Source: the human T2T-CHM13v2.0 reference genome, Homo sapiens. From it: a stretch of DNA of 64,000 nucleotides. The stretch is from assembly GCF_009914755.1 (NCBI RefSeq), contig NC_060930.1. The stretch is one strand, 5' to 3'. The notes under the pieces are model-generated. The model made no database searches. It was given only the letters and a program-made list of their open reading frames with translations, and was not told the origin of the DNA. The translations under genes and the position numbers were made by a program. This document shows, piece by piece, positions 25,044-33,470 of this stretch; the stretch's first letter is position 1; each line of letters opens with the position of its first letter.

Positions 25044-26619
25044 TTTTTCGATTTTCCTTTCTTTTTTTTAATTATTATTATACTTTAAGTTTTAGGGTAC
25101 ATGTGCACAATCTGCAGGTTAGTTACATATGTATACATGTGCCATGCTGGTGTGCTGCACCCATTAACTCGTCATTTAGCATTAGGTGTATCTCCTAATG
25201 CTATCCCTCCCCCCTCCCCCCACCCCACAACAGTCCCCAGAGTGTGACGTTACCCTTCCTGTGTCCATGTGTTCTCATTGTTCAATTCCCACCTCTGAGT
25301 GAGAACATGAGGTGTTTGGTTTTTTGTCCTTGTGATAGTTTACTGAGAATGATGATTTCCCATTTCATCCATGTCCCTACAAAGGACATGAACTCATCAT
25401 TTTTTATGGCTGCATAGTATTCCATGGTGTATATGTGCCACATTTTCTTAATCCAGTCTATCATTGTTGGACATTTGGGTTGGCTCCAAGTCTTTGCTAT
25501 TGTGAATAGTGCCGCAATAAACATATATGTGCATGTGTCTTTATAGCAGCATGATTTATAGTCCTTTGGGTATATACCCAGTAATGGGATGGCTGGGTCA
25601 AATGGTATTTCTAGTTCTAGATCCCTGAGGAATCGCCACACTGACTTCCACAATGGTTGAAGTAGTTTACAGTCCCACCAACAGTGTAAAAGCGTTCCTA
25701 TTTCTCCGCATCCTCTCCAGCACCTGTTGTTTCCTGACTTTTTAATGATTGCCATTCTAACTGGTAAGAGATGGTATCTCATTGTGGTTTTGATTTGCAT
25801 TTCTCTGATGGTCAGTGATGGTGAGCATTTTTTCATGTGTCTTTTGGCTGCATAAATGTCTTCTTTTGAGAAGTGTCTGTTCATATCCTTTGCCCACTTT
25901 TTGATGGGGTTGTTTGTTTTTTTCTTGTAAATTTGTTTGAGTTCTTTGTAGATTCTGGATATTAGCCCTTTGTCAGATGAGTAGGTTGTGAAAATTTTCT
26001 CCCATTCTGTAGGTTGCCTGTTCACTCTGATGGTAGTTTCTTTTGCTGTGCAGAAGCTCTTTAGTTTAATTAGATCCCATTTGTCAATTTTGGCTTTTGT
26101 TGTCATTGCTTTTGGTGTTTTAGACATGAAGTCCTTGCCCATGCCTATGTCCTGAATGGTAATGCCTAGGTTTTCTTCTAGGGTTTTTATGGTTTTAGGT
26201 CTAACATTTAAGTCTTTAATCCATCTTGAATTAATTTTTGTGTAAGGTGTAAGGAAGGGATCCAGTTTCAGCTTTCTACATATGGCTAGCCAGTTTTCCC
26301 AGCACCATTTATTAAATAGGGAATCCTTTCCCCATTGCTTGTTTTTCTCAGCTGTGTCAAAGATCAGATAGTTTTAGATATGCGGCGTTATTTCTGAGGG
26401 CTCTGTTCTGTTCCATTGGTCTATATCTCTGTTTTGGCAACAGTAGCATGCTGTTTTGGTTACTGTAGCCTTGTAGTATAATTTGAAGTCAGGTAGCGTG
26501 ATGCCTCCAGCTTTGTTCTTTTGGCTTAGGATTGACTTGGCGATGCGGGCTCTTTTTTGGTTCCATATGAACATTAAAGTAGTTTTTTCCAATTCTGTGA
26601 AGAAAGTCATTGGTAGCTT
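25044..26619 (-). mobile_element. 5'-truncated L1PA3-like LINE-1 (~1.55 kb)
   Basis: 3'UTR diagnostics (attaggagat, gctaaatgacgag, aactaacctg on - strand); ORF2 C-terminus; candidate TSD aaagatcatttttcttt (25026-) / aaagtgatttttcttt (26621-). Confidence 0.95.
25282..26619 (-). pseudogene. L1 ORF2p C-terminal remnant; 286-aa open segment 25282-26142 with intact CCHC motif
   Basis: [18 protein letters not shown]; in-frame stop at 26374-26376 upstream. Confidence 0.9.
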
Positions 26620-27106
26620 CAAAGTGATTTTTCTTTTCTTTACCCCTTAGGAACTAATACAGAGCTGATCAGTAAGTATTTGCTGATTAATCAATTGCTG
26701 GGAAACAGGTTACTTATTTTAGCTTAAAAATTATTTACTGTTTGAGAAAATTGTATTTGCTTTCCCTTAAATTCAGGCAAATAAATAGACTAAAACCATA
26801 ATCAGGTACCAGGAAAGACACTGACTTGCCTCTATTACAGTACTTCTGGAATTCAAAGGCCTGTTGTGCTGGTAAAGAAGGCTGTTTTTAACAGTATTTG
26901 CTTATTCAACTAAAAAACATGCTGGATGGCTCTTCTGAGCTTCATACTAGAGATAAAGTAAGGAATTCAATAGTTTGATCTCTCCTGACATGGGACATGT
27001 AGATTAGTGGGAGGCAAAATATGGTTCAGAAACCAAGTAAATGAGATATTTACGAAACTGGAGTTCTATCAATGTAACACAACATATAGTAAATGGAAAG
27101 ACTGAA

Positions 27107-29640: not shown

Positions 29641-32600
29641 ATGACAGGATCAAATTCACACATAACAATATTAACGTTCAATGTAAATGGGCTAAATGCT
29701 CCAATTAAAAGACACAAACTGGCAAATTGGATAAAGAGTCAAGACCCATCAGTGTGCTCTATTCAGGAGACCCATCTCACATACAGAGACACATATAGGC
29801 TCAAAATAAAAGGATGGAGGAAGATCTACCAAGCAAATGGAAAACAAAAAAAGGCAGGGGTTGCAATCCTAGCCTCTAATAAAACAGACTGTAAACCAAC
29901 AAACATCGAAAGAGACAAAGAAGGCCATTACATAATAGTAAAGGGATCAATTCAACAAGAAGAGCTAACTATCCTAAATATATATGCATGCAATACAGGA
30001 GCACCCAGATTCATAAAGCAAGTCCTTAGAGACCTACAAAGAGACTTAGACTCCCACACAATAATAATGGGAGACTTTAACACCCCACTGTCAACATTAG
30101 ACAGATCAACGAGACAGAAAGTTAACAAGGATACCCAGGAATTGAACTCAGCTCTGCACCAAGCGGACCTAAAAGACACCTACAGAACTCTCCACCCCAA
30201 ATCAACAGAATATACATTCTTCTCAGCACCACACCACATTCATTCCAAAATTGACCACATAGTTGGAAGTAAAGCTCTCCTCAGCAAATGTAAAAGAACA
30301 GAAATTATAACAAACTGTCTCTCAGACCACAGTGCAATCAAACTAGAACTCAGGATTAAGAAACTCACTCAAAACAGCTCAACTACATGGAAACTGAACA
30401 ACCTGCTCCTGAATGACTACTGGATACATAACGAAATGAAGGCAGAAATAAAGATGTTCTTTGAAACCAACAAGAACAAAGACACAACATACCAGAATCT
30501 CTGGGACACATTTAAAGCAGTGTGTAGAGGGAAATTTATAGCAGTAAATGCCCACAAGAGAAAGCAGGAAAGATCTAAAATTGACACCCTAACATCACAA
30601 TTAAAAGAGCTAGAGAAGCAAAAGCAAACACATTCAAAAGCTAGCAGAAGGCAAGAAATAACTAAGATCAGAGCAGAACTGAAGGAAATAGAGACACAAA
30701 AAACCTTTCAAAAAATCAATTAATCCAGGAGCTGGTTTTTTGAAAAGATCAACAAAATTGATAGACCGCTAGCAAGACTAATAAAGAAAAAAAGAGAGAA
30801 GAATCAAATAGACTCAATAAAAAAATGATAAAGGGGATATCACCACTGATCCCACAGAAATACAAACTACTATCAGAGAATACTATAAACACCACTACGC
30901 AAATAAACTAGAAAATCTAGAAGAAATGGATAAATTCCTCGACACATACACCCTCCCAAGACTAAACCAGGAAGAAGTTGAATCTCTGAATAGACCAATA
31001 ACAGGCTCTGAAATTGAGGCAATAATTAATAGCTTCCCAACCAAAAAAATCCAGGACCAGACAGATTCACAGCTGAATTCTACCAGAGGTACAAGGAAGA
31101 GCTGGTACCATTCCTTCTGAAACTATTCCAATCAATAGAAAAAGAGGGAATCCTCCCTAACTCATTTTATGAGGGCAGCATCATCCTCATACCAAAACCT
31201 GGCAGAGACACAACAACAACAAAAAAGAGAATTTTAGACCAATATCCCTGATGAACATCGATGCAAAAATCCTCAATAAAATACTGGCAAACTGAATCCA
31301 GCAACACATCAAAAAGCTTATCCACCATGATCAAGTGGGCTTCATCCTGGGATGCAAGGCTTGTTCAACATATGCAAATCAATAAACGTAATCCAGCATA
31401 TAAACAGAAGCGAAGAAAAAAAACACATGATTATCTCAATAGATGCAGAAAAGTCCATTGACAAAATTCAACAGCCCTTCATGCTAAAAACTCTTAATAA
31501 ATTAGGTATCGATGGGACATATCTCAAAATAATAAGAGCTATCTATGACAAACCCACAGCCAATATCATACTGAATGGGCAAAAACTGGAAGCATTCCCT
31601 TTGAAAACTGGCACAAGACAGGGATGCCCTCTCTCACAGCTCCTATTCAACATAATGTTGGAAGTTCTGGCCAGGGCAATCAGGCAGGAGAAGGAAATAA
31701 AGGGTATTCAATTAGGAAAAGAGGAAGTCAAATTGTCCCTGTTTGCAGATGTTATAATTGTATATCTAGAAAACCCTATTGTTTCAGCCCAAAATCTCTT
31801 TAAGCTGATAAGCAACTTCAGCAAAGTCTCAGGATACAAAATCAATGTGCAAAAATCAAGCATTCTTATACACCAATAACAGACAAACAGAGAGCCAAAT
31901 CATGAGTGAACTCCCATTCACAATTGCTTCAAAGAGAATAAAATACCTAGGAATCCAACTTACAAGGGATGTGAAGGACCTCTTCAAGGAGAACTACAAA
32001 CCACTGCTCAATGAAATAAAAGAGGATACAAACAAATGGAAGAACATTCCATATTCATGGGTAGGAAGAATCAATATCCTGAAAATGGCCATACTGCCCA
32101 AGGTAATTTATAGATTCAATGCCATCCCCATCAAGCTACCAATGACTTTCTTCACAGAATTGGAAAAAACTACTTTAAAGTTCATATGGAACCAAAAAAG
32201 AGCCTGCATTGCCAAGTCAATCCTTAGCCAAAAGAACAAAGCTGGAGTCTTCACACTTCCTGATTTCAGACTATACTTCAAGGCTGCAGTAACCAAAACA
32301 GCATGGTACTGGTACCAAAACAGAGATATAGACCAATGGAATAGAACAGAGCCCTCAGGAATAAAGCCACACATCTACAACTATCTGATCTTTGACAAAC
32401 CTGACAAAAACAAGAAATGAAGAAAGGATTCCCTATTTAATAAATGGTGCTGGGAAAACTGGCTAGCCATATGTAGAAAGCTGAAACTGGATCCCTTCCT
32501 TACACCTTACACAAAAATTAATTCAAGATAGATTAAAGACTTAAATGTTGGACCTAAAACCATAAAAACTCGAGAAGAAAACCTAGGCAATACCATTCAA

Positions 32601-33470
32601 GACATAGGCATGAGCAAGGACTTCATGTCTAAAACACCAAAAGCAATGACAACAAAAGTTAAAATTGACAAATGGGATCTAATCAAACTAAAGAGCTTCT
32701 GCACAGCAAAAGAAACTACCATCAGAGTGAACAGGCAACCTACAAAATGGGAGAAAATTTTTGCAATCTACTCATCTGACAAAGGGCTAACATCCAGAAT
32801 CTAAAAAGAACTCAAACAAATTTACAAGAAAAAAACAAACAACCCCATCAAAAAGTGGGCAAAGGACATGAACAGACACTTCTCAAAAGAAGACATTTAT
32901 GCAGCCAAAAGACACATGAAAAAATGCTCACCATCACTGACCATCAGAGAAATGCAAATCAAAACCACAATGAGATACCATCTCTTACCAGTTAGAATGG
33001 CAATCATTAAAAAGTCAGGAAACAACAGGTGCTGGAGAAGATCTGGAGAAATAGGAACAGTTTTACACTGTTGGTGGGACGGTAAACTAGCTCAACCATT
33101 GTGGAAGTCAGTGTGGCAATTCCTCAGGGATCTAGAACTAGAAATATCATTTGACCCAGCCATCCCATTACTGGGTATATACCCAAAGGATTATAAATCA
33201 TGCTGCTATAAAGACACATGCACACATATGTTTATTGCGGCACTATTCACAATAGCAAAGACTTGGATCCAACCCAAATGTCCAACAATGATAGACTGCA
33301 TAAAGAAAATGTGGCACATATACACCATGGAATACTATGCAGCCATAAAAACTGATGAGTTCGTGTCCTTTGTACGGACATGGAGGAAGCTGGAAACCAT
33401 CATTCTCAGCAAACTATCACAAGGACAAAAAACCAAACACCGCATGTTGTCACTCATAGGTGGGAATTGA
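29641..33470 (+). pseudogene. L1 ORF2p, disrupted (endonuclease domain open for 360 aa)
   Basis: [12 protein letters not shown]...; stop at 30721; several frameshifts; RT motif FADD changed to FADV; CCHC broken (CWRRSG...HCWWDG). Confidence 0.95.

What the first reader, a model, noticed from the sequence alone, without database searches (positions are those of the whole stretch)
25714..33038. Two inverted L1s of different subfamilies share private mutations: ectopic gene-conversion tracts
Seen: 25714-25884 (reverse complement) is 100% identical to 32868-33038 (171 bp), while the flanks differ frequently. Both copies carry the same departures from the L1 consensus as I recall it: ctcTTaccag (consensus ctcACaccag, a double substitution) and actgAcc (consensus actgGcc). 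Both therefore translate [18 protein letters not shown] rather than SSSLAIRE..HLTPV. A second identical tract of 108 bp (32422-32529 vs ~26223-26330) shares ttaCacaaaa, and a third patch shares gcaatgAcaac (32649 / 26103). The 3'UTR diagnostics say the elements are different subfamilies (PA3-like vs PA4-like), each with its own TSD. Inference: repeated non-allelic gene conversion between the arms after insertion, which makes both copies mosaics.
Basis: partly seen in the sequence, partly recalled or inferred. Interest (0 to 1): 0.8.

Follow-up and report, generated by a model that had tools for sequence, protein, structure and literature searches.

The report
Gene conversion between two inverted L1s
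Two old L1 retrotransposon copies that landed head-to-head in a RIMS1 intron have since copied short stretches of sequence onto each other, which is a clear example of an already well-known process.

Summary
Copy A (about 25070-26620, minus strand, 5'-truncated) and copy B (about 27543-33684, plus strand, full length) align over 1545 columns with 92 differences. Inside that overlap are identical runs of 171 and 108 nt.

Random placement of the differences gives both runs in 3.5e-5 of trials. None of 98 unlinked control L1 pairs reaches 171. Outside the runs, A groups with a younger L1 lineage and B with an older one, and an A+B clade is rejected (p-AU 0.0008). Each copy has its own flanking direct repeats.

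Seven non-CpG shared variants that neither copy's relatives carry as the majority allele all lie at 32510-32986.

Non-allelic gene conversion is therefore well supported. Three corrections apply:
- Only TT and its combination with 32940A are exclusive to the pair. The other "private" variants occur in 44 to about 1,700 other copies.
- The PA3 and PA4 names could not be tested.
- Direction looks mixed.

The kind of event is known, so interest is low to moderate.

The parts
25026..25043 (.). Left flanking direct repeat (target-site duplication) of copy A
   Evidence: Local alignment of the flanks pairs 25026-25043 with 26621-26637: 17-18 nt with one mismatch and one indel.
25044..25069 (-). Impure poly(A) tail of copy A, seen as a T-rich run on the plus strand
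   Evidence: Read directly from the sequence. It lies between the left repeat and the L1 3' end.
25070..26620 (-). Copy A: a 5'-truncated L1 3' end of about 1.55 kb (end of ORF2 plus 3'UTR), of the younger lineage
   Evidence: It aligns to copy B 32133-33676 at 94.0%. The nearest genomic relatives of its 3' part are 97% identical. In the flank tree it sits inside the clade of those relatives with support 100/99.
26621..26637 (.). Right flanking direct repeat of copy A
27516..27542 (.). Left flanking direct repeat of copy B; boundaries are approximate
   Evidence: It aligns with 33685-33713. The core AAGTTGAGACTTGGAGG matches AAGTTGAAACTTGAAGG.
27543..33684 (+). Copy B: a full-length L1 of about 6.1 kb with broken reading frames, of the older lineage
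   Evidence: Pfam finds the L1 ORF1 domains (Transposase_22, E 7e-60; Tnp_22_dsRBD), the endonuclease (Exo_endo_phos, E 4e-21) and the reverse transcriptase (RVT_1, E 3e-23) on separate ORF fragments. The nearest relatives of its 3' part are only 95% identical. Its terminal branch is 0.050 against 0.024 for A.
33685..33713 (.). Right flanking direct repeat of copy B (approximate)
32422..32529 (+). Identical run 2 (108 nt) = A 26330-26223; holds the shared variant 32510C
   Evidence: At 32510, A's relatives carry T in 21 of 22 and B's relatives in 9 of 9.
32614..32658 (+). Identical run (45 nt) = A 26138-26094; holds the shared variant 32649A
   Evidence: At 32649, A's relatives carry G in 25 of 25 and B's relatives in 9 of 9.
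32805..32866 (+). Identical run (62 nt) = A 25947-25886; holds the shared variant 32807A
   Evidence: At 32807, A's relatives carry T in 25 of 25 and B's relatives in 7 of 9, the other 2 carrying A.
32868..33038 (+). Identical run 1 (171 nt) = A 25884-25714; holds 32931C, 32940A and 32985-86 TT, just upstream of the ORF2 cysteine-rich motif
   Evidence: These two copies are the only 100% matches among the 40 scored of 1,472 first-look candidates for this tract. The A...TT haplotype has 2 matches genome-wide, both here.
26638..27515 (.). Non-L1 DNA between the 5' ends of the two head-to-head copies. The whole spacer between the homologous arms is 26620-32133, about 5.5 kb

Best explanation
Two L1 elements inserted independently into this RIMS1 intron, head to head. 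Copy B is an older, full-length element. Copy A is a younger, 5'-truncated element. Their 3' 1.55 kb form an inverted repeat with arms about 5.5 kb apart.

Long after both insertions, intrachromosomal non-allelic homologous repair used one arm as template for the other. This was most likely repair of a break by synthesis-dependent annealing, or a Holliday-junction intermediate with a mismatched heteroduplex. It homogenised short patches in the central part of the overlap (B 32422-33038). Differences that had accumulated there were erased. Variants that had arisen in one copy (32510C, 32649A, 32807A, 32940A and 32985-86 TT) were copied onto the other.

Shown: the identity runs, the shared rare variants, the lineage incongruence and the separate flanking repeats. 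Inferred: the repair mechanism, the number of events, the direction and the date.

The direction appears mixed, with the larger share from A to B. The date is probably within the last few million years, because 386 nt of runs carry no new difference. That estimate rests on an assumed rate of about 0.5-1e-9 per site per year.
For: 1. Run lengths. The runs of 171 and 108 nt stand in a 94% background. P = 3.5e-5 under uniform placement. None of 98 unlinked control pairs reaches 171. B's longest run against 14 relatives of A is 55-88 nt, and A's longest run against 7 relatives of B is 75-120 nt.

2. Local deficit of differences. Private differences are 15 in the central 617 nt, against 40.6 expected from the flank rate (Poisson P 3.7e-6). 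Panel copies show no cold spot there: private density is 2.9% in the 5' part, 2.4% in the centre and 1.9% in the 3' part.

3. Shared derived variants. There are 8, and all 7 non-CpG ones lie at 32510-32986, inside four of the seven longest identical runs (ranks 1, 2, 3 and 7). About 0.3-0.6 are expected by chance. By a looser count the pair has 10, against 0-5 in the 98 control pairs.

4. Rarity. The exact TT 27-mer occurs in 6 copies against 12,306 for AC. The haplotype CACTGACCATC..CATCTCTTACCAG has 2 matches in 3.1 Gb, and both are here. No third copy could have been the donor: the best other match to the 171-nt tract, among the 40 scored, has 2 mismatches.

5. Incongruence. In the flanks, A falls within its relatives' clade (100/99) and B with its own. 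Forcing A+B together costs 38 log-likelihood units (p-AU 0.0008). In the runs the two copies are identical on a common branch of 0.019.

6. Independent insertion. Each copy has its own poly(A) tail and flanking direct repeats. Sixteen lineage differences are retained, mostly in the 3'UTR.

7. Literature.
- Non-allelic gene conversion between transposable-element copies is documented and is elevated within 10 kb (PMC6598467, section 4 read).
- Repair of a break in a LINE by conversion from other LINEs, with tracts down to 13 bp, is cited in PMC1920257 (passages).
Against: - The boundaries of the central region and of the runs were chosen after seeing the data. The Poisson and tree results on them are therefore somewhat flattered.
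- The relatives' panels were picked by similarity to each copy's 3' part, which is itself part of the 'flanks'. Some of the clustering is by construction.
- Control pairs also share 0-5 'derived' states. B shares up to 6 with single relatives of A. Recurrent mutation is thus not negligible, and 32510C, 32649A and 32807A are each present in hundreds of other copies.
- Direction is inconsistent across sites. 32931C, 32861A and 33002A are alleles of A's relatives. 32911G and 32867T in A, and 32807A, are alleles seen in B's relatives.
- 94% identity is low for efficient homologous repair.
- There is no independent assembly, no reads and no ape orthologue.
Confidence: 0.85

Rival explanations
1. 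There was no exchange. The identical runs are a chance gap in neutral decay, and the shared variants are recurrent mutations or minor lineage variants that both source elements happened to carry.
For: Several shared variants are common. 32807A is in 1,696 copies, 32510C in 330, 32649A in 280 and 32931C+32940A in 46. The AT intermediate makes up most of the 429 one-mismatch neighbours of TT, about 3% of the 12,306 AC count. Control pairs share 0-5 derived states by chance.
Against: The joint haplotype A...TT exists only in this pair, and TT occurs in just 6 copies against 12,306 for AC. No control pair reaches the run of 171 nt (0 of 98). Relatives of A, chosen without regard to the tract, carry none of these alleles. 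Relatives of B carry 32807A in 2 of 9 and 32940A in 1 of 9, and none of the others. All the shared variants sit inside the longest runs.
Confidence: 0.05
2. It is an assembly or polishing artefact. Reads from one arm were used to correct the other, which copied bases between the inverted L1s in the T2T assembly.
For: Nothing specific supports it. It simply cannot be excluded without reads, and the patchy pattern of short tracts would also be produced by mis-assigned short reads during polishing.
Against: The arms are only 94% alike and lie 5.5 kb apart. From general knowledge of the HiFi and ONT data behind this assembly, not tested here, single long reads would span both arms. The intervals between the runs keep full divergence: 17 differences in 231 nt.
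Confidence: 0.05
3. The pair has a structural origin: a twin-priming inversion, an inverted segmental duplication of one L1, or copy A as a retrotransposed daughter of full-length copy B.
For: The copies are inverted and close together, and B is full length.
Against: - Twin priming gives non-overlapping L1 segments with one shared target-site duplication. Here 1545 nt overlap, and each copy has its own poly(A) tail and flanking repeats.
- A duplication or a daughter copy would share B's private changes along its whole length. Instead 52 B-private and 16 lineage differences remain, and A nests in another clade.
- The inverted homology stops at the L1 ends.
Confidence: 0.02

Closest known systems
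Non-allelic (ectopic) gene conversion between neighbouring Alu elements (Aleshin and Zhi 2010 and Kass et al. 1995, both as reviewed in PMC6598467; PMC8230782)
   Same: Independently inserted retrotransposon copies of different subfamilies exchange short tracts, share non-diagnostic mutations and become mosaics. The rate is higher for copies within 10 kb (PMC6598467, section 4).
   Different: Here the partners are L1s, not Alus. The homology is 1.5 kb long, the orientation is inverted, and at least four short patches lie in one 617-nt region. I did not see Aleshin and Zhi itself, because it is not held.
[quoted passage not shown]
   Same: It provides a mechanism: homologous repair between diverged L1 copies, with short tracts down to 13 bp.
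   Different: That work was an experiment in mouse cells using dispersed donors. This case is a germline, fixed and natural event between adjacent copies.
Arm-to-arm gene conversion in palindromes and inverted segmental duplications; inversions mediated by inverted L1 pairs (for example HsInv0341, L1PA3 arms, PMC3961182)
   Same: Inverted repeats a few kb apart recombine within a chromosome. The same substrate can also invert the spacer.
   Different: Palindrome arms are more than 99% identical and are homogenised along their full length. Here the arms are 94% identical and only about 25% of the overlap is homogenised. No inversion was tested.
Non-allelic gene conversion among human LTR elements (Trombetta et al. 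2016, as reviewed in PMC6598467)
   Same: Clusters of derived alleles are transferred between transposable-element copies.
   Different: That case concerned LTRs on the Y chromosome, detected from polymorphism data. This one comes from a single assembly.

Membership tests
LINE-1 (primate L1PA) retrotransposon insertion | Encodes L1 ORF1p and the ORF2p endonuclease and reverse-transcriptase domains | tested here: met
   For copy B, Pfam finds Transposase_22 (E 7e-60), Tnp_22_dsRBD, Exo_endo_phos (E 4e-21) and RVT_1 (E 3e-23) on ORF fragments. Copy A is 94% identical to B's 3' 1.55 kb.
LINE-1 (primate L1PA) retrotransposon insertion | A 3' poly(A) tail and flanking target-site duplication for each copy (target-primed reverse transcription) | tested here: met
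   For A, the repeats are 25026-25043 / 26621-26637 with a T-rich tail at 25044-25069. For B, they are about 27516-27542 / 33685-33713 with an A-rich tail. Both repeat pairs are imperfect.
LINE-1 (primate L1PA) retrotransposon insertion | Assignment to named subfamilies (L1PA3 against L1PA4) | not testable with these tools
   No Dfam or RepeatMasker consensus was on hand. What was shown is two lineages with 16 retained fixed differences, nearest relatives at 97% for A against 95% for B, and terminal branches of 0.024 against 0.050.
Non-allelic gene conversion tract | Identical fragments significantly longer than the background divergence allows (the GENECONV-type criterion) | tested here: met
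   P = 0.0014 for the 171-nt run and 3.5e-5 for both runs together. None of 98 control pairs reaches 171. GENECONV itself was not run.
Non-allelic gene conversion tract | Shared derived variants inside the tracts that are absent from each copy's own relatives | tested here: met
   Seven non-CpG sites at 32510-32986. The A...TT haplotype is unique to the pair genome-wide.
Non-allelic gene conversion tract | Phylogenetic incongruence between tracts and flanks | tested here: met
   The flanks reject an A+B clade (p-AU 0.0008). In the runs the copies are identical on a common branch of 0.019. The partitions were chosen after seeing the data.
Non-allelic gene conversion tract | Donor, recipient and date fixed by orthologous loci in outgroup species | not testable with these tools
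   No primate genome other than the window's own assembly is held.
Non-allelic gene conversion tract | The tracts are present in independent assemblies or reads | not testable with these tools
   Only one assembly (G000) is available.
Twin-priming L1 inversion | The two inverted segments are adjacent, non-overlapping parts of one L1 RNA within a single target-site duplication | tested here: not met
   The segments overlap by 1545 nt. Each has its own tail and flanking repeats, and they belong to different lineages.

The most novel reading that the evidence does not exclude
All patches may stem from one recombination intermediate between the 6%-diverged inverted arms. In this reading a symmetric heteroduplex spanned about 600 nt and its mismatches were repaired independently in both directions.

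That would explain four things found side by side:
- sites converted from A to B;
- sites converted from B to A;
- untouched sites;
- two sites (32745 and 32867) where each copy now carries the other lineage's allele.

Such an intermediate could have been resolved with or without inversion of the 5.5-kb spacer. The locus would then be a natural record of bidirectional patchy mismatch repair, and perhaps of a recurrent small inversion in RIMS1 intron DNA.
Probability: 0.15. Interest if true: 0.4.

Novelty: new member of a known kind. Interest (0 to 1): 0.25.

Why it matters
The locus is intronic (RIMS1, no exon in the window) and both L1s are dead, so no function is at stake.

Its value is as a clean, checkable example. 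Neighbouring L1 copies of different ages do not decay independently. Exchange erased about half of the expected differences in a 617-nt stretch and moved variants between subfamilies. This distorts divergence-based dating and subfamily calls of L1 copies. It also marks inverted L1 pairs a few kb apart as active recombination substrates, the same substrates that cause small inversions.

A genome-wide scan with the same recipe could measure how common this is for L1s. The recipe has three steps: find nearby pairs, look for outlier identical runs, and look for shared variants absent from each copy's relatives.

Tried and rejected
- Twin priming, inverted duplication and 'A is a daughter of B' were all considered. 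They were rejected because of the 1545-nt overlap, the separate flanking repeats and the 16 retained lineage differences.

- A third-copy donor was considered. It was rejected because the best other match to the 171-nt tract, among the 40 scored of 1,472 candidates, has 2 mismatches.

- An early reading held that B's lineage carries AT at 32985-86, so that TT came from B. I withdrew it. The AT-bearing copies had been picked by similarity to the tract. Relatives of B chosen by the 3' part carry AC in 9 of 9.

- Double inversion with two crossovers was considered as the cause of the two swapped sites. It was rejected because an unswapped lineage site (32762) lies between them.

- Dead ends:
  - Two papers recalled by PMC id are not held.
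  - A search for L1PA3/4/5 diagnostic positions returned 0 papers.
  - A search for RIMS1 + inversion + inverted repeats returned 0 papers. I know of no printed description of this locus, but the library does not hold most subscription journals.
Twelve tight regions were fetched instead, so B's panel is small: 9 copies cover the tracts and 7 are full length.
  - One search was a stray translation of no use.

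
Full report
**What is there**

The window lies in an intron of RIMS1; the hub's table lists no exon in the window. Two L1 elements lie head to head.

Copy A runs from about 25070 to 26620 on the minus strand. It is a 1.55-kb 5'-truncated 3' end with an impure poly(A) tail (25044-25069) and flanking direct repeats at 25026-25043 / 26621-26637.

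Copy B runs from about 27543 to 33684 on the plus strand and is full length. It has L1 ORF1, endonuclease and reverse-transcriptase domains on broken ORF fragments, an A-rich tail, and its own imperfect flanking repeats at about 27516-27542 / 33685-33713.

The shared 3' parts form an inverted repeat. The repeat finder gives arms of 1449 nt at 94%, with 5495 nt between them.

**The observation**

A(rc) against B 32133-33676 gives 1545 columns with 92 differences, 94.0% identity.

| Run length | Copy A | Copy B |
|---|---|---|
| 171 nt | 25884-25714 | 32868-33038 |
| 108 nt | 26330-26223 | 32422-32529 |
| 62 nt | 25947-25886 | 32805-32866 |
| 60 nt | 26067-26008 | 32685-32744 |

The 171-nt tract translates to ...[25 protein letters not shown]....

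**Is it more than chance?**

- Placing 92 differences uniformly gives a run of 171 or more in 0.14% of 200,000 trials. It gives 171 together with a second run of 108 or more in 0.0035%.
- As an empirical null I took L1 copies from elsewhere in the same genome and compared 98 unlinked pairs (14 relatives of A x 7 relatives of B). Their longest run has median 97.5 and maximum 150. None of 98 reaches 171, although these pairs differ less (median 79 differences).
- B against the 14 relatives of A gives longest runs of 55-88 nt. A against the 7 relatives of B gives 75-120 nt.

**Panels of relatives**

The whole genome (G000) can be searched. I picked relatives by each copy's 3' part (A 25075-25713, B 33039-33676), which lies outside the tracts.

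- A's best matches are 97% identical (loci L038-L066).
- A third set, L003-L030, came from a search with the tract itself. It is biased towards the tract's alleles, so I did not use it for lineage states.

**Classification of the differences**

Each difference was scored against the majority state of each panel.

| Class | Count |
|---|---|
| B-private | 52 |
| A-private | 19 |
| Lineage differences kept by both copies | 16 (11 of them in the 3' part, 33039-33676, which holds the 3'UTR) |
| Shared derived states | 8 |

The shared derived states are 32510C, 32649A, 32807A, 32931C, 32940A, 32985T and 32986T, plus a CpG-type site at 33226. The seven non-CpG sites all lie at 32510-32986, inside four of the seven longest identical runs (ranks 1, 2, 3 and 7).

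Chance coincidence of private changes predicts about 0.3-0.6 such sites. By a looser count the pair has 10. Control pairs have 0-5, and B against single relatives of A has 1-6. Recurrent mutation is therefore not negligible, but the pair remains the outlier.

Private differences number 15 in the central 617 nt, against 40.6 expected from the flank rate (P 3.7e-6; conditional binomial 1.4e-4). Panel copies show no mutational cold spot there: private density is 2.9%, 2.4% and 1.9% in the 5', central and 3' parts. The region boundaries were chosen after seeing the data.

**How private are the shared variants?**

Exact 27-mer counts in the 3.1-Gb genome:

| Variant | Copies |
|---|---|
| TT at 32985-86 | 6: the pair plus one copy each on contigs C10, C11, C23 and C24 |
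| AC at 32985-86 | 12,306 |
| Within one mismatch of TT | 435, mostly AT |
| 32931C + 32940A | 46 of 3,334 within one mismatch |
| 32807A | 1,696 |
| 32649A | 280 |
| 32510C | 330 |

So only TT is really rare. The other variants are recurrent or minor-lineage variants, not private mutations.

The four other TT copies carry G at 32940. The best third-party match to the 171-nt tract, among the 40 scored of 1,472 candidates, has two mismatches, so there is no outside donor in this genome.

**Trees**

On the flanks (32133-32421 plus 33039-33676; 23 full-length rows), A sits inside its relatives' clade with support 100/99, and B sits with its own relatives. Terminal branches are 0.024 for A and 0.050 for B. 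Holding A and B together costs 38 log-likelihood units (p-AU 0.0008).

On the 386 columns of the four runs, the two copies are identical on a common branch of 0.019. This second tree is partly trivial, because the runs were chosen as identical. The panels were also picked by similarity in part of the flanks.

**Mechanism**

Independent insertion followed by non-allelic gene conversion between the arms explains all of the above.

- The intervals between the runs keep full divergence: 17 differences in 231 nt. The exchange was therefore patchy. It was either several short events or one heteroduplex with patchy mismatch repair.
- Direction is mixed.
  - The density of shared derived states in the runs is 7 in 386 nt, or 1.8%. 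The common branch there is 0.019. Both match A's decay (0.024) better than B's (0.050).
  - 32931C, 32861A and 33002A are alleles common among A's relatives. Together with the density, this favours A as the main donor, erasing B's older mutations.
  - However, 32807A occurs in 2 of 9 relatives of B and 0 of 25 relatives of A.
  - A also carries 32867T and 32911G, the alleles of B's relatives. Yet A's marker 33460G goes with C..A at those two sites in its own panel: 11 of 11 covered copies.
  - At 32745 and 32867 each copy carries the other lineage's majority allele.
- I cannot polarise this without outgroups.
- Date. No new difference has arisen in 386 nt of runs. With an assumed 0.5-1e-9 substitutions per site per year (recalled, not computed here), this points to the last few million years, long after both insertions. 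This is inference only.

**Comparison with what is known**

- Non-allelic gene conversion between transposable-element copies is established for Alu and LTR elements, with higher rates for copies within 10 kb (PMC6598467, section 4 read).
- Repair of a break in a LINE by conversion from other LINEs, with tracts as short as 13 bp, is cited in PMC1920257 (passages). I did not see the original paper.
- Inverted L1PA3 pairs mediate human inversions (PMC3961182, table passage).
- I recall reports of L1-L1 conversion in surveys of young human L1s, but I did not see them here.
- My searches found no description of this locus. The library lacks most subscription journals.

**Verdict**

It is a clean new instance of a known process in non-functional DNA.

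The remaining rivals are an assembly artefact (about 5%) and chance plus recurrent variants (about 5%). Both can be tested with other assemblies, reads and ape orthologues, none of which were available.

Noticed in passing
window 32225-32286 (copy B): There is a cluster of B-private substitutions: 9 in 62 nt. Six of them are changes to T (32225, 32248, 32250, 32258, 32264, 32278). All relatives of both lineages keep the other base at these sites, apart from one copy at 32250. This could be a local mutation shower or an old conversion from a diverged copy.
   Followed up: no
window 32133-33676 (copy B): B's terminal branch in the flank tree is 0.050. That is about twice the value for its seven nearest relatives (0.015-0.025) and for A (0.024). 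B is either unusually decayed or belongs to a lineage that the 12 fetched relatives sample poorly.
   Followed up: partly
window 32745 and 32867 (A 26007 and 25885): At these two lineage-informative sites each copy carries the majority allele of the other copy's relatives: A has G and T, B has A and C. An unswapped lineage site (32762) lies between them. This could be reciprocal repair of a symmetric heteroduplex, or polymorphism plus private mutation.
   Followed up: partly
loci L038-L066 (relatives of copy A): A's relatives split into two haplotype groups. 33460G goes with C-A-C at 32867/32911/32931, and 33460A goes mostly with T-G-T. So the 'younger lineage' is itself two sublineages. A carries 33460G but T-G-C.
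   Followed up: partly
G000 C10:109684173, C11:48746144, C23:61909033, C24:14753263 (loci L033-L036): These are the only other four copies in the genome with the exact TT 27-mer. Three have the older (B-like) 3'UTR alleles and one has the younger type. All four carry G at 32940. They look like independent A-to-T changes on the AT background.
   Followed up: partly
window 32985-32986, genome-wide: The AT variant at this non-CpG site occurs in roughly 3% of copies: most of the 429 one-mismatch neighbours of TT, against 12,306 for AC. It appears on both older and younger 3'UTR backgrounds. That is rather frequent for a simple private transition, so it may mark a small sublineage or a hotspot.
   Followed up: no
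window 27543-33684 (copy B): Copy B is full length, but its reading frames are broken into many fragments. The largest open stretches are 365, 221, 203 and 202 aa, so it is long dead as a retrotransposon.
   Followed up: no
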